A stretch of DNA of 64,000 nt from assembly GCA_963841095.1 (NCBI GenBank), contig CAWJBE010000002.1:2278-66277 (forward strand), in the 5' to 3' direction. The notes under the pieces are model-generated. The model saw only the letters and a program-made list of their open reading frames with translations. It was not told the DNA's origin and did no database searches. How positions within the stretch are numbered: position 1 is the stretch's first letter; each line of letters opens with the position of its first letter. This stretch comes from an uncultured Acidobacteriaceae bacterium (GTDB lineage Bacteria > Acidobacteriota > Terriglobia > Terriglobales > Acidobacteriaceae). The translations under genes were made by a program, and so were the position numbers. Below are positions 42,077-51,769 of the stretch, one piece after another.

Positions 42077-45019
42077 ATGAAGCAGAATCGTAGAACCTTC
42101 CTTCGCAATACAGCCTTGGCCGGAGGAGCAGTCACCCTCCGGAATGTCGCCGCTAGCACACCGCTTCCCTCACCATCCGGATTCGCTTCGGCAACCGCGC
42201 AAGCCCCAAGCGCCACCGGCTCCTCGGTTCGCGAGCAATTTCAATCGCCGCCGAAGAAGTACCGGCCCATCGCGCGGTGGTGGTGGCCTGGCAACGACGT
42301 CACTGACGCAGAACTGCGTCGCGAAGTCGACGTGCTCGACAAAGCGGGCTTTGGCGGCGCCGAAATCCAGGCCTTCAACAAGGGACTGCCGGCTAAATAC
42401 GTTTCTCCGGCGGAGCTCCAGCGGATCAATAGTTTCGCTACTCCATCTTTTTTCCGCCACGTTGCGGTCGCGGTGGAAGAGGCCCGTAATCGCGGCTTGT
42501 TCATCGACTACACCTTTGGCTCCGGTTGGCCCTTCGGAGGTGGCGACGCCATTACGCCGGAACTCACTACGATCGAATTGCGCTCAACGCATCTCTCCGT
42601 TGCCGGCCCCGCCACGCTCCATCAGAAGCTGCAAATCCCCTCAGTTACCGACGGCGACCCGCTCACTGGCTCTGACATCCTGAAGGGATTGCCCGATGGC
42701 TGGGCAGACCGCGTCAAGCAGCGCACGAAAGTCGTTGCTGTAGTGGCAGTGCGCGGCGAAGATGCGGAGTGGGACTTCCACGCCCTAGGTGGACCGAGAC
42801 AAACCGTCGTCAAGCCAGGCCAATTGCAAAGAGATTCATCGGTCGATCTCACTGCGCGCCTTCAGCCTGACGGCATATTGCAATGGGACGTTCCCGACGG
42901 AACCTGGCAGCTCTTCGTCTTTTGCTCCGTACCGAGGATGCAGAGAGTAAACGGAGCCGCAGGTGAAGGTCCCCAGCTTGTAATGGACCATCTGAGCACC
43001 GCGGCCTTCGCAGCCCACGCCAAACGCGTTGGCGACGACGCGGTTCCGTACATCGGCAAATTCTTCGGCAACGGATTGCGTGCAATCTTCTGTGACAGCC
43101 TTGAAGTGGCCGCGAATCTCTTCTGGAGTGATGATTTTCTTGCTGAATTCCGGCGCCGCCGCGGTTATTCTCTGCTCCCCTATCTTCCCATCATCCAGAT
43201 GCAGGGCCACGCGGAGCCCTTCGGAAAATTTGCCGATCTCCCCGTCTTCGAAATCGCGGAGGTAGGCGATCAGGTCCGCCACGACTATCGTCAAACCGTC
43301 TCTGACCTGATGATCGAGCGGTTTTACAGTCAGTTCAACAAATGGGCCCACGATCACAACCTGCTCTCCCGCACTCAGGCACACGGTTCTCCTGCCGACG
43401 TACTGCGAGTCTACGGAGAGGCCGACATCCCCGAAACCGAAGACCTCTACGACAATGGCTGCTACGACTTTCTCAAGATGGCCGCTTCGTCCGCGCACGT
43501 CTACGGCCGCGCCATCGTTGGCAGCGAATCATTTGTCTGGCCAACCGGCGCCTATCAAACAACGCCCGAGAAAGTGAAGCTCGCGGCCGACGAACTGCTG
43601 ACCGCCGGCGTCAACGCCATCGTCTATCACGGCTTTCCCTACATCGTTCCTGAGGTTCCTCCGCCCGGCTGGCACCCGTTCAACGGGATATGGCGAGGGC
43701 AACTACTCCTCGCAGTTCAATGAGCTCAATCCCTTCTGGCCCTACTTTGCCGCAGCTCAACAGCTACATCACGCGAGTGCAGTACATCTCGCAAGTTGGA
43801 ACAAATGTCGCCGCGGTCGCGCTCTATCGGAACGACCTCTCCACGGCGCTGACCGATGTGCCGCCTTCGCCAAAGTTGAACCAGGCCATCATGGATGCCG
43901 GTTACAACTACGATCACATCAATGCCGATTCACTCCTGCACTGTACCGTCCGCGAACAGATGTTGGTCACAACCGGCGGAGCGCACTACCGCGCTTTTGT
44001 TTTGCCTCCACTCGACGCCATCGGCGCGGCAGTGGCTGAAAAGCTTCAGGGCTTCGCCGCCGCCGGGCTTCCCGATTCTCTTTGCCGGCCAGGCCCCATC
44101 GCAAACCGACAGCCTCTCCGGAGAACTCCGACGCAACGCAAAGCGTGCAGACTGCGATGCGCAACCTTCACGACCACCGCAACGTCTGCTTCTGCACCAG
44201 CACCAGCGATGCAATCTCGAAACTCGGTGGCCTGGCGAATCCGAATATCAGGTTCCACAGCGAAACCTCTTTCCTTCATCCAGAAACAGATTGGCCGCTT
44301 GACCATGTACTTCCTCCGCAACGATTCGGATGCATCGCAACACCTCAATGCCGAGTTCGAAGCGGAGGGCATGCCTGAGCTTTGGGATCCGTGGACCGGC
44401 GAGATCGCATCCATCGCCGCCTCCCGCCGCAACGGCAATTGGGTTAAGCTCGAGCTCGATCTCCAGCCGCTTGCTTCCGCCTTGATCGTCTTCGATCCCG
44501 ATAGCAGCGCCGCTTCTGCGCCGGCCATCCAACCCATCCGAAAGTTAAAACGCGCGGAGCCCATCGGCACCGGCGGCTGGAGACTCACTGCTACCGGCCT
44601 CGTACCGACCGGAAAAACGGCCACGATCCAGTCGTGATTTGCCGGTGTTGATTGACTGGTCGCTCGACAGCGAACTCCGCGGTTTGTCAGGATGCGGCAC
44701 TTACACAACCACATTTACAGCTTCCGCAGCGGATGCCGGAAGTCGGCTCGTTCTCGATCTCGGCAACGTGAAAGATGTTGCCGAGGTTACGGTTAATGGC
44801 AAGCACGCCGCCTCGCTGCTCCTGCGCCCATACCAGGCCGACATCACCGATTTCGTTCGTCCGGGAGAAAATCAGTTGGAGGTCGCAGTCACAAACTGCC
44901 TCTTCAACAGCCTGGTCCTTCGCGATCCGCAGCCCTTTCACCCCGGTCCGACGGAGAATCCTTCCGGATTCACGTCCGCCGGCCTCATCGGTCCGGTCCA
45001 GATCAAGGAGATGGTCTGA
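42077..45019 (+). CDS. Tat-exported GH106-like (alpha-L-rhamnosidase-type) glycoside hydrolase with about six single-base frameshifts (43688-44635)
   Basis: NRRTFL Tat motif; RPIARWWWPG, GFGGAEI, DYTFGSGWPFGG, FCDSLE, PETE, GSESF, LDLGNV; fragments rejoin when single bases are removed. Confidence 0.78.
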
Positions 45020-45148
45020 ATTGCCGTTGCTGAACCGCCGGCCGCGCTCGAGCATGCGCGGACGCCTACCATTTTCAAGGCTTTATTCTTGTCCTCTCGT
45101 GCCGCAGCCGTTGAACTTATCTCGGAACAGGATTATAATGTTAACTGC

Positions 45149-45415
45149 ATGATTCCCAGCAACTTACAGGCTCTTTTCTGGGACACGAACCTCGACGCCT
45201 TCGCGCCGGAGGCCCATCCCGACTACACCATCTTCCGGGTGCTGGAGTTGGGCGACGAGGCAGCGGTGAGCTGGCTGCGGCAGACATTTGCCGAGTCGGA
45301 GATATGCCGCGTGCTCAAGAGCGAACGCCGCCTTTCCGAGAAATCTGCCAATTTCTGGGCACTCGTGTACAAGGTTCCGCCACGCGAAGTTGCGGCCCTG
45401 AGCCGCATCTGCTAA
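45149..45415 (+). CDS. DUF6922-like protein, putative antitoxin
   Basis: LFWDTN...IFRVLELGD...W...F motif; directly upstream of the AbiEii-like gene. Confidence 0.7.
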   Translation: MIPSNLQALFWDTNLDAFAPEAHPDYTIFRVLELGDEAAVSWLRQTFAESEICRVLKSERRLSEKSANFWALVYKVPPREVAALSRIC

Positions 45416-45438
45416 CCGCGCAGCCGAAGGAAACCGCC

Positions 45439-46077
45439 ATGACCGATCATGAGAATGGGGCGTGGCACCACGAGGTAATTCCTGCCTCAACCGAAACAAC
45501 CCTGTTTGCTCTGCGGGATGCAAACCTGTTGAACAACGCCTACCTCGCCGGCGGGACGGGGCTTGCGCTCCGGTTTGGACACCGGCTTTCCCTGGATCTG
45601 GACTTCTTTTTGCCCGAACAATTCGATGAAGATGCGCTGCTCCAACAGCTGCATAAGCTCAAAACGTTCTCCCTACTTGCAAAGGCCCCGTACACTCTCC
45701 ACGCGACTATCGAGAATACAAAAGTGAGTTTTCTCGGCTATACCTATCCGGTTCTCTACCCATCAACGCCGCTTCTCGGTGTCGCAATCGCTGATCCGCG
45801 CGATATTGCTTGCATGAAAATCAGCGCCATTGCGAGCCGTGGCACCAGGCGCGATTTCGTTGACCTCTACGTTTGCGCAAATCGATTTGGCCTTAATGAA
45901 ATTCTCAGAATGTTTGAAATCAAGTACGCTCAGATGCAATTCAGCAAACCTCACATCCTCAAGTCCCTTTCCTTCTTTGCAGACGCGGAAAAAGACCCCA
46001 TGCCTCATATGCTTGAAGAAATCGGTTGGGACAAGGTGAAGCAGTTCTTCCTCTACGAAGTTCCGCGACTCATCTGA
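45439..46077 (+). CDS. Nucleotidyltransferase AbiEii/AbiGii-family toxin
   Basis: YLAGGTGLAL.FGHRLSLDLDF, MKISAI..RG..RDFVDLY. Confidence 0.88.
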   Translation: MTDHENGAWHHEVIPASTETTLFALRDANLLNNAYLAGGTGLALRFGHRLSLDLDFFLPEQFDEDALLQQLHKLKTFSLLAKAPYTLHATIENTKVSFLGYTYPVLYPSTPLLGVAIADPRDIACMKISAIASRGTRRDFVDLYVCANRFGLNEILRMFEIKYAQMQFSKPHILKSLSFFADAEKDPMPHMLEEIGWDKVKQFFLYEVPRLI

Positions 46078-46193: not shown

Positions 46194-48944
46194 TTACTTC
46201 ACCGTCAGCTGCGCCGTTACCGAATGAGTCAGCGATCCCGAAGCCGCCGTCACGGTGAACGAAAAGTTCTGCGATCCAAATCCCGCCTTGCCGCAGCCCG
46301 TGAATCCCACTGCCAATGCCGCGCTGATTGCTGCCAGCACCACCAGTTTCGTCAGGCGAGCGCGTCCTTTGCGCAGCCTGCCAGCAAACGGCAGCAGGAT
46401 CAGCCCCAACGCCACCGGCAGCGCACCTCCGCCAAACGGGCTGCGCGGCCGTTCCAGCGTCGCGCTGGCCGGCAACTTCATCTGCAGCGTCACTGTGGTC
46501 GTTCCGGAACTTGCCGCGATCGTCGCCGGTGAAAAACTCGCCGTCGATCCCAGCGGAGTCGCCGTCGCGCTCAGATTTACGCTTGCCGGCAGCGTCGTCC
46601 CGCCCACCGGAGTAATCACCAGCGTATAGGCCGCTTGTCCGCCGGCCGCCACGGTTGCCGAGCTCGACGCTGCACTTGCAAATGCCAGCGTAAAGTCCTG
46701 CACCGTCTCCGTCATCGCGCCGCTCGTCCCCGGCCCATAATTGCTGTCGCCGGAGTAGGCCGCTGTAATCGAGTGAATTCCCGCCGCCAGCGCCGTCGTG
46801 GTGAATGTGCCCGACCCGCCCGCAACCGTAGCCGTACCGATCTGCGTTGTTCCGTCGTAGAAAGTCATGGTGCCCGTTTGGGTCGAAGCATAAGAAGGCA
46901 GGCTCGCCGTGAACGACACCGCGTAGGTCATGAATACAGGATTGGCAGAAGTTGTCAGCGTCACCACCGGAGTGCCGGGAATCACTTGCAGGGTTACGGT
47001 CGCTGTCGACGTTGTGTAATCGGTGCTATCGGTCGGTGTGAACGTCGCCTGCAGCGTTTGTGGTCCCACGTTCAGAACGGTTCCCGCTGCCGGCGAATAT
47101 GTGAAGCTTCCCGCCACCGGCGAGCTGGCGTCCAGTTGGATCGCACTCAACGCAGTCCCGTACACGATCGGCAGCGGCGTCGCCCATGTAATGACAGGCG
47201 CCTGCTGGTAGACCACGTTATCCGATGCCGTTACGTTCGTTGAAAACGACACGCTGGAAACCGTTGCAGTCAGTTTTCCGGCATAACTCGCCAAAGTTGT
47301 GTAGGTCCCCACGCTCAGCGTCAGCGTTACGGAATCGGTAGTGCTCGACGGCAGGCTGCTGTTGCGCGTGCACGTTGCAGTGCTCGCCGTGCAAACCCAT
47401 CCGCCGGTCGAGTCGTTCATCGCTGTCACCGTCACGAGCGGCGGCAGCGTGAAGGTCAAAATCGCGGAGCTGTCCGTCTGAGTCGTCGTGCTGGTGTTGG
47501 TTACACTCACCGTCACCTGGTCGGTCGTGTCGCCCGACTTCACAACCAGCGGGCTCGGATTCAACGCGATCGAAAGTGTCGGTACCACCACCGGCTGCAC
47601 AAACGTCGACAGATCGAAGAGCGCGTATTCCAGCATCTTCTCCTGCGCGCTCATCGCATACGAGGGAGCGGTGTAGCTGGGGCACTCCTTGGGGTAAATG
47701 TTATTGGTATTGTTCACGCTGACGTTGATCACGTGATAGTCGTTGAACATCACGCGTCCGCACTGGTTAGCCGCCGGAGCACCCACTGGCGTGTTGAAGG
47801 TCATCTGCATTACGGGGTTGCCCGTTTGGCCGTTGTACGCGCCGCTGTTCAGTGTCACCCAGGACTGCGTCGGCGGAATGACCGTGCCCACGTCGGTACG
47901 CAGCGTACCGATGTTAATCTGGTTCGCTGTACCCGCCACGGTTGCGCCAGAGTTCTCTAGCCATTGCGCCAGCGTCGCCCCGTCGCTGAAGTTTGTGGCC
48001 ACCGTTCCGACCCCTGTGTTGCTCTGCGCCTCCGCAGTTGTCGTCCAATTCGCCACCGCTGGAAACTGTGCATTCATCGGCGCGTTGGGATCGATATACA
48101 CATAGCTGTAGTGCGTCGTGAAGAGGCGTCCACCCGCGTTCGCGTAATTCAGAATGTCCTGCAAAGCCGTGCTCGATTGATCATATTGCCCGCCCTGGCA
48201 TGGGAACATCACCATGTCGTAACCGCTCATGGCCGTTGCATTATTTGTCAGCGTCGACTCCAACGGAGTCGACGTACTGATCTCCGCTCCTCCCGATCCT
48301 GCACTTCCGTCGCCCCTGTAAAGATGGATATGCCCCGCGGGATTGACCGAGCCGGTATCGTCGGTAAATTCCGTATCGGCGATCCCCATATCGCGCAGCA
48401 CGCACTCCACGCCATCCACTGATCCCGTCACAATCGCGATCATCGGAATGTCGCCCTCCGTGTGGTCCGCAGGCATGTTCAGCGAAAGCCCCGTCAGCGG
48501 CGTTGTCGCCACCGCCTGATTCGGAAACTGTCTCCGCCACTTGCCCGCCTGGATCACGATCGTGTAGCTCGCATTCTCAGGAATATTGGCCAGCGTGAAC
48601 GTGCCGTCGGTTGCCGTATAGGCATAACTCACCACTCCGGTCGGCGCCTGGTACGTCAGGCATTGCACTTGGTTTGGGACCGGGAACGGCGCCACCGGCG
48701 CAGTCGTCGCATACACCAACACATTCGGCAGCGGCAGCCCGCTGGTCCCGCGCGGATCGTAGACTGTGCCGCTGATTGTGGTCGTTGCAGGAGTCTGCGC
48801 AATTGCAATACCGCACACGGCCGGCAGCAGCCACACCAGCGCCGCAATCGCGCTTATGCTTTGTTTCAAAAGGTTGCTGGTGGAGTCGGAATGCGATGCA
48901 GTAATGCGGAACCATGAAGTCATGGCGGTGGACCTTTTCCACAC
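46194..48944 (-). CDS. Secreted Ig-like repeat surface protein
   Basis: Signal peptide, prealbumin-like domain, Cys-containing core, Thr/Ser-rich Ig repeats (ITWATP.PI.YG, TFYDG, Y.GDSNY), hydrophobic tail with FTGC; start may be slightly downstream. Confidence 0.85.
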   Translation of the reverse strand: MWKRSTAMTSWFRITASHSDSTSNLLKQSISAIAALVWLLPAVCGIAIAQTPATTTISGTVYDPRGTSGLPLPNVLVYATTAPVAPFPVPNQVQCLTYQAPTGVVSYAYTATDGTFTLANIPENASYTIVIQAGKWRRQFPNQAVATTPLTGLSLNMPADHTEGDIPMIAIVTGSVDGVECVLRDMGIADTEFTDDTGSVNPAGHIHLYRGDGSAGSGGAEISTSTPLESTLTNNATAMSGYDMVMFPCQGGQYDQSSTALQDILNYANAGGRLFTTHYSYVYIDPNAPMNAQFPAVANWTTTAEAQSNTGVGTVATNFSDGATLAQWLENSGATVAGTANQINIGTLRTDVGTVIPPTQSWVTLNSGAYNGQTGNPVMQMTFNTPVGAPAANQCGRVMFNDYHVINVSVNNTNNIYPKECPSYTAPSYAMSAQEKMLEYALFDLSTFVQPVVVPTLSIALNPSPLVVKSGDTTDQVTVSVTNTSTTTQTDSSAILTFTLPPLVTVTAMNDSTGGWVCTASTATCTRNSSLPSSTTDSVTLTLSVGTYTTLASYAGKLTATVSSVSFSTNVTASDNVVYQQAPVITWATPLPIVYGTALSAIQLDASSPVAGSFTYSPAAGTVLNVGPQTLQATFTPTDSTDYTTSTATVTLQVIPGTPVVTLTTSANPVFMTYAVSFTASLPSYASTQTGTMTFYDGTTQIGTATVAGGSGTFTTTALAAGIHSITAAYSGDSNYGPGTSGAMTETVQDFTLAFASAASSSATVAAGGQAAYTLVITPVGGTTLPASVNLSATATPLGSTASFSPATIAASSGTTTVTLQMKLPASATLERPRSPFGGGALPVALGLILLPFAGRLRKGRARLTKLVVLAAISAALAVGFTGCGKAGFGSQNFSFTVTAASGSLTHSVTAQLTVK

Positions 48945-49984: not shown

Positions 49985-50467
49985 TCACTTCCGCCTGTGT
50001 TCGCCCCACGCAAATGCGTTTTCAAAATGCGTGAACTCGTTCCGTTCACCGGGCACAAGATACACGCTGATCACGTCAAAACGCGACTGGGGAACGCCAT
50101 CATGGCTTAGTTGGCGCACGTACTGGCGGGCCAGCCGGCGCAGAATGCTGCGCTTGTGCGCATCAACCGCGGTTTCGGCCGGTGTCAAATCGTGCGCGGT
50201 CCGCGTCTTCACCTCGATGAAGCACAGCACTGGTCCCTGCCACGCAATCAGGTCCACGTCGCCGGGAACATTGCCGGCCGACCACCGCCGCGCCACCACC
50301 GTGTAGCCCTTGCGCAGCAGGTAGAAGTAAACGGCTTCCTCGCCTTCAATGCCTGTGGCTAAATGCGGCGGCAGTTTCTGAGCTCGGCCGCGTCGCGCCG
50401 CCACCACGTCCAGCCCTTTCACCACGCGTTCCAGCATTCCAACCCGCGTCCCCGCCGCAAATTTCAT
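49985..50467 (-). CDS. YraN-family protein
   Basis: GIEGEEA...L...GY.VVARRW, GDVDLIAW, FIEVKTR, SRFDV. Confidence 0.9.
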   Translation of the reverse strand: MKFAAGTRVGMLERVVKGLDVVAARRGRAQKLPPHLATGIEGEEAVYFYLLRKGYTVVARRWSAGNVPGDVDLIAWQGPVLCFIEVKTRTAHDLTPAETAVDAHKRSILRRLARQYVRQLSHDGVPQSRFDVISVYLVPGERNEFTHFENAFAWGEHRRK

Positions 50468-50659
50468 CGCCCACCATTGTCGGCCCTTCTGCGCGATCAA
50501 CGCAAATGCCGCGCCCACTCGAACGAATCTCGATGTCGTCCCAAAATGGTTCGCGCATGTCCCATTCTGAAACCGCATCTCGCCCTGCCTTCGCGCGGCC
50601 CTGATGTCCGCAGCCCCGTTGCCCGAAACTGAAACCATACCGTGAAGGAGAATCCAGCC

Positions 50660-51769
50660 ATGTCTCATGGTCTGTTCTCGGGTCTTTTTGCCTCGCGCGG
50701 CCCCGCTGCGCCGCTTGCCGTGCCCGCGCCTGCTAATGGACAAGACCCCTTCGCCGAGCCGGACGCGTTCGCGTCCTTTGCATCTGCCGGCCGGCAGCCA
50801 GCGGACCGCAGCTTCGAGTTTGCCCTTGATGCCCTGCCCTGTAACGCAATGTTCTGCGACCGAGAGCTCATTTTGCGTTACATCAATCGCTCGTCGCGCA
50901 AAACTCTGCTCACTCTCCAGCAATATCTGCCCATGCCTGTAGACCAGATCGTTGGCAACTCGATCCACATCTTCCATCGCTCGCCCGAGCATGTCGATCG
51001 CCTTCTCGGCGCAAAGCAGCATCACGGCAGCCATCGTCTTCCGCACAAGGCTGTCATCGAATTGGGGCCGGTGAAACTCGACCAGGAAATCGCCCCCATG
51101 ATCGACGAGCATGGCGAATATATCGGCGCGGTCGTGCTTTGGGGCGTCAGCACCCAGAAGACGGTCGACGCGCTCAGAAAAGCTCAGGAAACACAGCGCA
51201 GCGACATCGAGCACTTGAACGGTAATTTGCAGATGGTGGCCACGGCCACGCATGAAATCGAATCCAGCATCGCGGAGTTTGCCAAAAACGCCTCTGACCT
51301 GGCTCAGGCAGCCGAAAAATCGCGCTCCGCGAGCGACGAAAGCAAGACTTCGATCCTGAGCCTGCAAACCTCCTCGAGCGGCGTCGCCAAGGTTGCGGAA
51401 CTCATCGCTTCCATCGCCACGCAAACCAGCGTCCTGGCCCTGAACGCAAACATCGAGGCCGCGCGCGCGGGCGTGCATGGCAAGGGATTTGCCGTTGTGG
51501 CCAGCGAAGTGCGCAAGTTGGCCGAGCAAACTGCCGCTGCCACGGCGGAAATTCAGGCCAAGGTCACCGCCATCGGCGCAGACATCTCCACCGCCATCGC
51601 TGCAATCAATCGCATCGCCGGACAAACCGACGATCTATCCGGGCTTTCGCATCAAATGGCCGCCGCCGCAGAGGAGCAGCACCTCGCCACGCAGGAGATG
51701 GCCCATAACCTGGAGCGCGCCGCGCAACGTACTGAAGAAATCGCCAGCATGCGCATCGAAGAGCAGTGA
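50660..51769 (+). CDS. Soluble PAS-domain methyl-accepting chemotaxis protein
   Basis: PAS (NAMFCD...YIN...IFHRSPEH...VVLW); MA domain [32 protein letters not shown]; no TM. Confidence 0.9.

What the first reader, a model, noticed from the sequence alone, without database searches (positions are those of the whole stretch)
46194..46710. Split Ig domain with an internal lipoprotein-like signal: possible undescribed surface-anchoring mechanism
Seen: the last Ig-like domain (DFTL...YTLVITP...VNLS...SFSP...VTLQMK) appears to stop short. It is followed by a hydrophobic segment (GGALPVALGLILLPFAG), a basic patch (RLRKGRARLTK), a second hydrophobic segment ending in a lipobox-like FTG-C (Cys codon 46293-46295), and then FSFTVTAASGSLTHSVTAQLTVK, which looks like the missing beta-strands. 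Established: n-h-lipobox is the SPase II signal, normally N-terminal, and donor-strand complementation is known from pili. Inference: the tail is cleaved and lipidated, and the resulting short lipopeptide tethers the large exported protein by completing its Ig fold.
Basis: inference. Interest (0 to 1): 0.75.

Follow-up and report, generated by a model that had tools for sequence, protein, structure and literature searches.

The report
Lipobox membrane hairpin splitting Ig domain
The odd tail of this 916-residue exported soil-acidobacterial protein is real: two membrane helices and a lipoprotein-type cysteine sit inside a loop of its last Ig-like domain, but NCBI already catalogues this tail as a putative, never-tested "lipo-invert" anchor, so this is a divergent new member and not a new system.

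Summary
The ORF at 46194-48944 (-) ends in five or six Ig strands, an 18-residue hydrophobic helix, the basic loop RLRKGRARLTK, a second helix ending FTG-C (Cys884, codon 46293-46295), an 8-residue linker and two beta-strands.

The tail matches NCBIfam NF058595, "lipo-invert putative C-terminal anchoring domain", over the whole profile. E is 2.8e-7, but the 30.9 bits fall below the 37-bit cut-off.

- **Copies:** ten ORFs in this genome carry the same tail, and so did every sampled genome of the same family.
- **Cysteine:** it is kept in 120 of 121 orthologues and is the only invariant column across 38 diverse tails. Position -1 is always G, S or A.
- **Split domain:** with the insert removed in silico, the domain aligns end to end with 553 ordinary uninterrupted Ig domains.
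- **Fold:** AlphaFold2 models the last two strands at pLDDT 95-96. Foldseek alignments to single Ig domains span the whole model, which implies these strands lie in the sandwich; coordinates could not be inspected.

The split-Ig reading is therefore supported. Lipidation, signal peptidase II cleavage and tethering by the lipopeptide remain inference. That model is also incomplete, because after the cut the large fragment still carries both helices. I found no paper describing the tail. It is a new, sub-threshold member of a known, untested kind.

The parts
46194..48944 (-). Whole ORF, 916 aa (P0001), stop codon at 46194-46196. The real start is probably the ATG at 48923 (residue 8, MTSWF...), as in the orthologues.
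48795..48923 (-). N-terminal Sec-type signal peptide (residues 8-50), ending in the well conserved A-x-A|Q site. It exports the bulk of the protein.
   Evidence: Ala at the -1 position of the cleavage site, Ala49, the tool's +3 column counted from Cys45, in 92 of 99 orthologues
46476..46697 (-). N-terminal part of the last Ig-like domain (residues 750-823), forming the strands that precede the insert, up to the last one (here called E).
   Evidence: AlphaFold2 strands with pLDDT 90-96; aligns to the first three quarters of uninterrupted Ig domains
46434..46475 (-). Linker LPASATLERPRSPF (residues 824-837) between the last strand before the insert and the first helix.
46380..46433 (-). TM1, GGGALPVALGLILLPFAG (residues 838-855), inferred stop-transfer helix. 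It is the most conserved tail segment among 99 orthologues.
   Evidence: helix in the AlphaFold2 model; mean column entropy 0.85 bits against 1.25 for TM2
46347..46379 (-). Basic loop RLRKGRARLTK (residues 856-866), inferred to be cytoplasmic. It doubles as the n-region of the internal lipoprotein signal.
   Evidence: net charge of +3 to +6 over 10 residues in all tails
46296..46346 (-). TM2, the h-region plus the lipobox residues F-T-G (residues 867-883), 17 uncharged residues.
   Evidence: helix in the AlphaFold2 model
46293..46295 (-). Cys884 codon (TGC), the putative diacylglyceryl acceptor and the +1 residue of the signal peptidase II site.
46269..46292 (-). Post-Cys linker GKAGFGSQ (residues 885-892). 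It is unusually short: P0001 has 32 residues after the Cys, against a family median of 43-44.
46197..46268 (-). The last two strands (F and G) of the split Ig domain, NFSFTVTAASGSLTHSVTAQLTVK (residues 893-916).
   Evidence: pLDDT 95-96; Foldseek alignments to single Ig domains span the whole model; nearly identical to the F-G hairpin of uninterrupted domains, for example NYNFTVTGVSGSLTHSVSATLTV in P0248

Best explanation
The tail is a divergent, sub-threshold member of the NCBIfam 'lipo-invert' C-terminal anchoring module. That module is a 60-70-residue cassette inserted into the loop before the last two strands (E-F loop) of the final Ig-like domain. The cassette is helix, basic loop, then helix ending in a lipobox.

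Proposed working, all inferred from topology rules and the known lipoprotein pathway:
1. The N-terminal Sec signal exports the roughly 800-residue body.
2. TM1 stops transfer, and the basic loop stays in the cytoplasm.
3. TM2 re-inserts N-in/C-out exactly as a lipoprotein signal peptide does, putting F-T-G-C884 at the outer face of the inner membrane.
4. The last two strands fold back into the Ig sandwich, so the domain sits on the membrane.
5. Lgt then most likely adds diacylglycerol to Cys884, and signal peptidase II probably cuts G883|C884.

The result would be a nicked Ig domain whose last two strands are a 33-residue lipopeptide. That gives the protein a lipid anchor near its C-terminal end, in addition to the two-helix hairpin that stays on the large fragment.

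Shown here: the architecture, its conservation, the split domain, and the predicted fold. Inferred: the topology, lipidation, cleavage, and continued association after cleavage.
For: - **Family match:** NF058595 matches over profile positions 2-113 of 113 with E = 2.8e-7. All 38 aligned tails match it.
- **Paralogues:** ten ORFs in the same genome end in the same architecture, and eight score over the cut-off.
- **Cysteine:** kept in 120 of 121 orthologues, and the only invariant column in 38 diverse tails.
- **Lipobox:** the lipobox core pattern is met in 104 of 117 orthologues, 9 of 10 paralogues and 20 of 22 relatives. The h-region median is 17-18 residues and the n-region carries +3 to +6. 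Position -1 is G/S/A in 30 of 30 tails.
- **Split domain:** the spliced domain aligns contiguously with 553 unsplit Ig domains. In a 1598-aa paralogue the split domain aligns with its own preceding unsplit tandem copy.
- **Fold:** AlphaFold2 gives pLDDT 84.6 and pTM 0.67 overall, with the last two strands at 95-96 and two helices between. Foldseek hits to single Ig domains span 168-176 columns with TMq 0.42-0.46. The 74-residue N-part alone could not reach that.
- **Enzymes:** Lgt is present in this genome. Signal peptidase II is present in 28 of 31 genomes of the family and in all three of the same genus.
Against: - The score (30.9 bits on the excised tail, 33.5 on the genome) is under the curated 37-bit cut-off.
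- No signal peptidase II gene was found in this assembly. The assembly is only 91% complete, so this is probably a gap.
- No experiment or paper on this tail was found.
- I know of no demonstrated case of an internal lipoprotein signal being processed (own knowledge).
- Model coordinates could not be inspected, so strand packing rests on pLDDT and on Foldseek alignment spans.
- After cleavage the large fragment would still keep two membrane helices, so the benefit of nicking is unexplained.
Confidence: 0.62

Rival explanations
1. The tail is a plain two-helix membrane anchor. The hairpin alone holds the protein in the inner membrane. The Cys may be lipidated or may serve another role, signal peptidase II never cuts, and the Ig domain stays one chain.
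For: Two hydrophobic helices flanking a strongly basic loop are sufficient as an anchor. No signal peptidase II gene is present in this assembly. No processing data exist.
Against: A plain hairpin would not need an invariant Cys with G/S/A at -1, small or hydrophobic residues at -2 and -3, and a small residue at +2 across distant paralogues. Signal peptidase II is present in same-genus genomes.
Confidence: 0.22
2. There are two signals and two cuts. TM1 plus the basic loop is a C-terminal sorting signal of the GlyGly-CTERM type and is cut by a rhomboid-type or other intramembrane protease. TM2 is cut by signal peptidase II. The protein then hangs only on the lipopeptide that completes its Ig domain, and it may move to the outer membrane or the cell surface.
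For: TM1 begins with GGG and contains Pro. It gives a weak GlyGly-CTERM hit of 11.4 bits at E = 0.43. TM1 is the most conserved tail segment among orthologues. Two rhomboid-family genes are present.
Against: The GlyGly-CTERM score is below its 15.5-bit cut-off and only 2 of 38 tails hit that model. No rhombosortase scores over its cut-off: 45 bits against 84. There is no conserved motif before TM1 across the family. No recurrent neighbouring enzyme is found at the ten loci in this genome.
Confidence: 0.13
3. The tail is an artefact. Either a frameshift or misassembly fused a sorted protein to a small lipoprotein gene, or an internal start makes the tail a separate small lipoprotein.
For: Many orthologues have a Met in the basic loop (GRMRK), which would look like a lipoprotein precursor start.
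Against: The same single-ORF arrangement occurs in more than 170 orthologues and in paralogues on nine other loci. In P0001 that position is Leu, read by eye as CTG. The wider family has RRRSWR with no Met.
Confidence: 0.02

Closest known systems
NCBIfam NF058595 invert_tail (lipo-invert putative C-terminal anchoring domain)
   Same: The order of parts is the same over the whole 113-position profile: end of an Ig domain, helix, basic cluster, helix ending in a lipobox Cys, linker, two strands, stop. The lineage is the same (Acidobacteriaceae), and the tail is multi-copy per genome.
   Different: P0001 scores 30.9-33.5 bits against the 37-bit cut-off. Its post-Cys linker is only 8 residues, giving 32 residues after the Cys against a family median of 43-44. 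The N-part lacks the C...C pair seen in most members. Named orthologues are labelled only 'Ig-like domain repeat protein'. The family itself is a database entry with 'putative' in its name, and I found no publication.
Classical bacterial lipoprotein signal peptides (Lgt, signal peptidase II, Lnt pathway)
   Same: A positive n-region, a 17-residue uncharged h-region, the lipobox F-T-G-C with a small +2 residue, and an inferred N-in/C-out orientation. The A2 profile's weak PDB hits to this segment are the N-termini of lipoproteins (LpqE, MtrC/OmcA, Mce, a solute-binding protein), at a non-significant E of 0.25-0.9.
   Different: The signal lies at residues 856-884 of 916, after the passenger, not at the N-terminus. 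The 'mature' product would be a 33-residue peptide.
C-terminal sorting signals (GlyGly-CTERM/rhombosortase, PEP-CTERM/exosortase, LPXTG/sortase)
   Same: TM1 plus the basic cluster looks like the helix-plus-arginines end of such signals. There are weak hits to the GlyGly-CTERM, PVV-CTERM, PTPA-CTERM and LPXTG models.
   Different: It is not at the extreme C-terminus, since 61 residues follow it. It is below every cut-off. There is no conserved signature motif, and no rhombosortase is present.
Donor-strand complementation in chaperone-usher pili
   Same: An Ig-like fold that is incomplete on its own is finished by strands supplied from elsewhere. One Foldseek hit is a pilin subunit complex.
   Different: Here two strands are supplied, not one, and they come from the same precursor chain. 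The domain can fold before any cleavage, and no chaperone or usher is involved.
Nicked-domain tethers of eukaryotes: GAIN domain of adhesion GPCRs and SEA domain of mucins (own knowledge)
   Same: A large extracellular fragment is held on a membrane-anchored fragment only by beta-strand bonding across a cleaved loop. This is the best analogy for how the tail would work.
   Different: Those domains cut themselves and are anchored by protein helices. Here a membrane peptidase would make the cut and the anchor would be a lipid. There is no homology.
DAG-RiPPs: short peptides lipidated by the lipoprotein pathway (bioRxiv 10.1101/2025.10.31.685832)
   Same: They show that the lipoprotein pathway accepts substrates whose mature part is a short peptide.
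   Different: Their signal is N-terminal, the peptides are natural products, and they are not part of a split domain.

Membership tests
NCBIfam NF058595 invert_tail | Profile match at or above the curated 37-bit cut-off | tested here: inconclusive
   30.9 bits on the excised tail and 33.5 bits in the genome search. E is 2.8e-7 and 1.9e-7 with profile coverage 2-113 of 113. The match is significant and full-length but under NCBI's operational cut-off.
NCBIfam NF058595 invert_tail | Module lies at the extreme C-terminus of an exported protein | tested here: met
   The match ends at the stop codon. An N-terminal signal peptide is present.
NCBIfam NF058595 invert_tail | Helix, basic cluster, then a second helix | tested here: met
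   GGGALPVALGLILLPFAG / RLRKGRARLTK / LVVLAAISAALAVGFTG. AlphaFold2 models helices at positions 96-110 and 118-134 of the tail model.
NCBIfam NF058595 invert_tail | Invariant lipobox cysteine at the end of the second helix | tested here: met
   Cys884 aligns with the only invariant column of alignment A2 and is kept in 120 of 121 orthologues.
NCBIfam NF058595 invert_tail | Short beta-strand tail after the cysteine that belongs to the preceding Ig-like domain | tested here: met
Bacterial lipoprotein signal peptide (signal peptidase II substrate; PROSITE PS51257 rule recalled from memory) | Positive n-region, uncharged h-region, [LVI][ASTVI][GAS]C lipobox | tested here: met
   Net charge of the n-region is +3 to +6 across orthologues (P0001's RLRKGRARLTK has six K/R and no D/E), the h-region is 17 residues, and the core pattern is matched.
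Bacterial lipoprotein signal peptide (signal peptidase II substrate; PROSITE PS51257 rule recalled from memory) | Located at the N-terminus (Cys within about the first 40 residues) | tested here: not met
   The Cys is residue 884 of 916. The tail therefore works like a lipoprotein signal but is not a classical one.
Bacterial lipoprotein signal peptide (signal peptidase II substrate; PROSITE PS51257 rule recalled from memory) | Lipid modification by Lgt and cleavage by signal peptidase II | not testable with these tools
   Lgt is present. Signal peptidase II is absent from this 91%-complete assembly but present in relatives.
GlyGly-CTERM / rhombosortase system | TIGR03501 match over its cut-off, at the extreme C-terminus | tested here: not met
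   11.4 bits against 15.5, E = 0.43, and 61 residues follow the match.
GlyGly-CTERM / rhombosortase system | Partner rhombosortase (TIGR03902) in the genome | tested here: not met
   The best hit is 45.1 bits against a cut-off of 84, which indicates only generic rhomboids.
Donor-strand complementation (chaperone-usher type) | Ig fold lacking its last strand, completed by a strand from a different polypeptide | not testable with these tools
   The fold is completed by strands of the same precursor. Whether they become a separate polypeptide depends on cleavage, which is untested.

The most novel reading that the evidence does not exclude
Internal signal peptidase II processing produces a nicked Ig domain, and a second intramembrane cut removes the TM1-TM2 hairpin. 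The 880-residue protein would then be held on the envelope only by beta-strand bonding to its own 33-residue triacylated peptide. This would be a sortase-free route to C-terminal lipid anchoring in a diderm bacterium, and possibly a route to surface display or regulated shedding. It would be used by up to a dozen or more large proteins per Acidobacteriaceae genome.
Probability: 0.2. Interest if true: 0.75.

Novelty: new member of a known kind. Interest (0 to 1): 0.35.

Why it matters
If the inferred processing is real, it would be the first case I know of where a lipoprotein signal works from inside a protein. It would also be a bacterial counterpart of the nicked-domain tethers of animal adhesion receptors. 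It would explain how abundant soil Acidobacteriaceae hold many very large Ig-repeat enzymes and adhesins on their envelope.

For this window the practical points are smaller:
- The tail belongs to an already catalogued family.
- A whole orthologous group of roughly 900-residue proteins probably goes unlabelled. P0001 sits just under the family's score cut-off, and the named orthologues are annotated only as 'Ig-like domain repeat protein'. The orthologues' own scores against the cut-off were not listed.
- The split-domain nature of the module can be shown from sequence alone, by comparison with thousands of uninterrupted copies of the same Ig domain.

Tried and rejected
- **Pfam on the spliced domain:** only non-significant Ig-like hits at E of about 0.1, so Pfam cannot name the domain.
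- **Full-length AlphaFold2 model against PDB:** only generic multi-Ig chains, nothing about the N-terminal alpha/beta domain.
- **Pfam, NCBIfam and PDB sequence searches of residues 140-455:** nothing found.
- **Exhaustive profile search with alignment A2 to count carriers:** the Ig part of the profile dominated, giving 36,907 hits at E <= 0.001. These are mostly unsplit tandem Ig repeats, so the number is not a carrier count. The search was still useful because it supplied the unsplit domains. Of the top 150, 23 end in the tail.
- **Dedicated sorting enzyme:** no rhombosortase. No recurrent neighbour at the ten loci in this genome other than large receptor-like proteins and glycoside hydrolases.
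- **Choice-of-anchor test:** among 64 further homologues of the N-terminal domain, 58 have the same tail and 6 are truncated or frameshifted, so no alternative anchors were seen.
- **Internal start codon for a separate small lipoprotein:** rejected. P0001 has Leu there (CTG, read by eye), and the wider family has no Met.
- **Literature:** four searches found no description of the tail. One 'C-terminal lipoprotein signal' hit was a wording slip about an N-terminal signal.
- **Cluster look-up for organism names:** returned none.
Full report
**1. The observation**

The finding lies on the minus strand. The ORF at 46194-48944 (-) encodes 916 residues.

...TTTVTLQMK / LPASATLERPRSPF / GGGALPVALGLILLPFAG / RLRKGRARLTK / LVVLAAISAALAVGFTG-C / GKAGFGSQ / NFSFTVTAASGSLTHSVTAQLTVK-stop

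Cys884 is encoded at 46293-46295. Orthologues start at the Met that is residue 8 here. They carry an N-terminal signal peptide ending in a conserved A-x-A|Q site, so the body of the protein is exported. Pfam sees only a CarboxypepD_reg-like sandwich (weak) and one Big_3_5 Ig domain at residues 663-749.

**2. It is a catalogued module**

NCBIfam NF058595, 'invert_tail', described as 'lipo-invert putative C-terminal anchoring domain-containing protein', matches the tail over profile positions 2-113 of 113. E is 2.8e-7 at 30.9 bits, which is under the curated 37-bit cut-off. The genome-wide search gives 33.5 bits.

- The window's own genome (5.05 Mb, 27 contigs, 91% complete) holds eight hits over the cut-off plus this one and one more full-length sub-threshold hit.
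- All ten ORFs end in the same order of parts.
- All 38 members of my diverse alignment match NF058595.
- Four literature searches found no paper that describes it.
- Earlier notes of this scan reached the same identification in other genomes, and one reports a similar module in a Binataceae genome. I re-derived every point used here myself.

**3. Distribution**

In 301 genomes sampled across the phylum, 36 have a hit at E <= 1e-5 and 28 have one over the cut-off.

- All 22 sampled genomes of the same family have hits.
- Two of four other sampled genomes of the same class have hits.
- Elsewhere in the phylum there are only single weak hits.
- None of 14 control genomes from other phyla scores over the cut-off.
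- Named orthologues are 'Ig-like domain repeat protein [Terracidiphilus sp.]', which places them in Acidobacteriaceae, Terriglobales.

**4. The cysteine and its context**

- Among 121 proteins found with the tail (53-85% identical to it), 120 keep the Cys. The exception has an aberrant, apparently frameshifted C-terminus.
- Across 38 diverse tails (orthologues, own paralogues and relatives, 24-85% identical to P0001's tail) the Cys is the only invariant column.
- A lipobox core pattern, recalled from PROSITE PS51257, is met in 104 of 117 orthologues, 9 of 10 own paralogues and 20 of 22 relatives. The misses differ by one residue, for example GLNGC.
- The uncharged stretch before the Cys has a median of 17-18 residues. 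The ten residues before it carry a net +3 to +6.
- Parsing did not constrain positions -3 to -1, yet -1 is G/S/A in 30 of 30 tails, -2 is mostly T/S/A/I/V, and +2 is G/A/S/T/N. The same holds for 23 further tails from an independent library.

So the second helix has every sequence feature of a lipoprotein signal peptide except its place in the protein.

**5. The Ig domain really is split**

Three independent lines support this.

(a) Sequence, for P0001 itself. With residues 830-889 removed in silico, the domain aligns from query position 9 to 106 of 107 with 553 uninterrupted domains of 87-98 residues in 119 proteins. The best is P0248 residues 774-866, whose hairpin NYNFTVTGVSGSLTHSVSATLTV nearly equals NFSFTVTAASGSLTHSVTAQLTV.

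(b) Sequence, within this genome. In the 1598-residue paralogue, the split terminal domain aligns across the junction with the uninterrupted tandem copy just before it (residues 1299-1406, i-E 3.4e-11). The insert therefore replaces a short loop, STATTTAG.

(c) Structure. AlphaFold2 on the last 170 residues, with the 38-row alignment, gives mean pLDDT 84.6 and pTM 0.67.
- Six strands before the insert have pLDDT 90-96.
- Two helices sit at the two hydrophobic segments, with pLDDT 65-80.
- Two 11-residue strands at the very end have pLDDT 95-96.
- In the full-length model the same two strands reach about 80, while the 60 residues before them are below 50.

Foldseek's best PDB matches are single Ig-like domains: the sialidase linker domain, SbsC domains, titin Z1 and NBR1. 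The alignments span 168-176 columns, which is the whole query, with TMq 0.42-0.46. The 74-residue N-part alone could give that value only with near-perfect superposition, which the 3-5 Å rmsd rules out. So the last strands must be part of the aligned sandwich. I could not read the coordinates, so direct contacts were not checked.

**6. What could be learned about the machinery**

- Lgt is present, with one clear copy and one partial-profile paralogue.
- No signal peptidase II gene is found in this assembly. However, 28 of 31 genomes of the family and all three of the same genus have one, so an assembly gap is the likely reason.
- No rhombosortase is present, only two generic rhomboids.
- The ten loci in this genome share no recurrent candidate enzyme.
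- The immediate neighbours are a GH106 rhamnosidase, an AbiEii toxin and a GntR regulator.

**7. Mechanism**

The arrangement obeys the positive-inside rule. The passenger is outside, TM1 runs out-to-in, the basic loop is inside, and TM2 runs in-to-out. TM2 therefore has the orientation of a signal peptide, with its lipobox at the outer face. Both ends of the insert leave the Ig domain at the same loop. The domain can therefore fold on the membrane surface before any cut.

The most likely sequel is Lgt lipidation of Cys884 and a signal peptidase II cut at G883|C884. This would nick the loop and leave a 33-residue lipopeptide as the domain's last two strands. I put about 0.6 on this.

The large fragment would keep TM1, the loop and TM2, so the lipopeptide would not be its only tether unless a second cut occurs.
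- In favour of a second cut: TM1 is the most conserved tail segment among 99 orthologues (entropy 0.85 bits against 1.25 for TM2). It starts with GGG and gives a weak GlyGly-CTERM hit.
- Against it: only 2 of 38 tails hit that model, no motif before TM1 is conserved across the family, and no partner enzyme was found.

**8. Comparison and verdict**

The tail works like a lipoprotein signal placed after its passenger. After cleavage it would work like the nicked GAIN or SEA tethers of animals, and less like pilus donor-strand exchange. By architecture and significant full-length homology it belongs to NF058595. It is a short-linker subfamily scoring just under the curated cut-off. P0001 has 32 residues after the Cys against a family median of 43-44, and orthologues are annotated only as Ig-like repeat proteins.

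The split-Ig inference is supported. 'Undescribed' is not supported. The biochemical steps remain untested. Interest is moderate to low for this instance, because the family is already catalogued and this scan has flagged it in many genomes.

Noticed in passing
window 47580-48470 (-), residues about 160-455 of P0001: A confidently folded alpha/beta domain (pLDDT about 90) has invariant Cys and His residues: C181, H207, C249 in FPCQGG, H404 and C395-G-R invariant, and H278 in THYSY nearly invariant (at least 90%). It has no Pfam, NCBIfam or PDB sequence match. It is conserved in more than 800 metagenomic proteins, and the 120 best-scoring hits that were listed carry the lipo-invert tail apart from a few truncated or frameshifted ones. 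Its function is unknown.
   Followed up: partly
window 42077-43723 (+) and 43690-44637 (+): A GH106 alpha-L-rhamnosidase is split over two overlapping ORFs in different frames (profile positions 214-484 and 519-739). This is either a frameshifted pseudogene or a sequencing error.
   Followed up: partly
window 48810-48812 (-), Cys45 in the N-terminal signal: The N-terminal signal peptide has a semi-conserved Cys (80 of 99 orthologues) in a lipobox-like context (LLxAC-G). In P0001, Val at -1 breaks the pattern. The downstream A-x-A|Q site is better conserved, so signal peptidase I cleavage seems more likely. Some orthologues might be lipidated at both ends.
   Followed up: partly
genome contigs C6:44-4837 and C19:1821-6614 (outside the window): Two copies of a 1598-aa lipo-invert protein, with identical C-terminal 190 residues and first 110 residues, lie near contig ends. 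This is either a recent duplication or an assembly duplicate. The protein carries an unsplit tandem copy of the split Ig domain.
   Followed up: partly
whole genome G000: No signal peptidase II (Peptidase_A8) gene is present in the 91%-complete assembly, although all three same-genus genomes have one. A second, partial-profile Lgt paralogue lies at C11:16295-16777.
   Followed up: partly
window 45304-46077 (+): An AbiEii-type nucleotidyltransferase toxin gene lies directly downstream, convergent with the tail gene. The small ORF at 44775-45152 upstream has no family match.
   Followed up: no
window 49985-51625 (-): A 546-aa ORF in which only residues 428-521 match UPF0102 (YraN). The listed TTG start probably over-extends a much shorter gene.
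   Followed up: no
TM1, window 46380-46433 (-), and family alignment A2: Most tails have a Pro 1-4 residues before the basic cluster (LLPFAGR, GIPARRR, FLPARRRR). By eye, about 40% start TM1 with a GG/GGG motif. Among orthologues TM1 is more conserved than TM2. No explanation was tested.
   Followed up: partly
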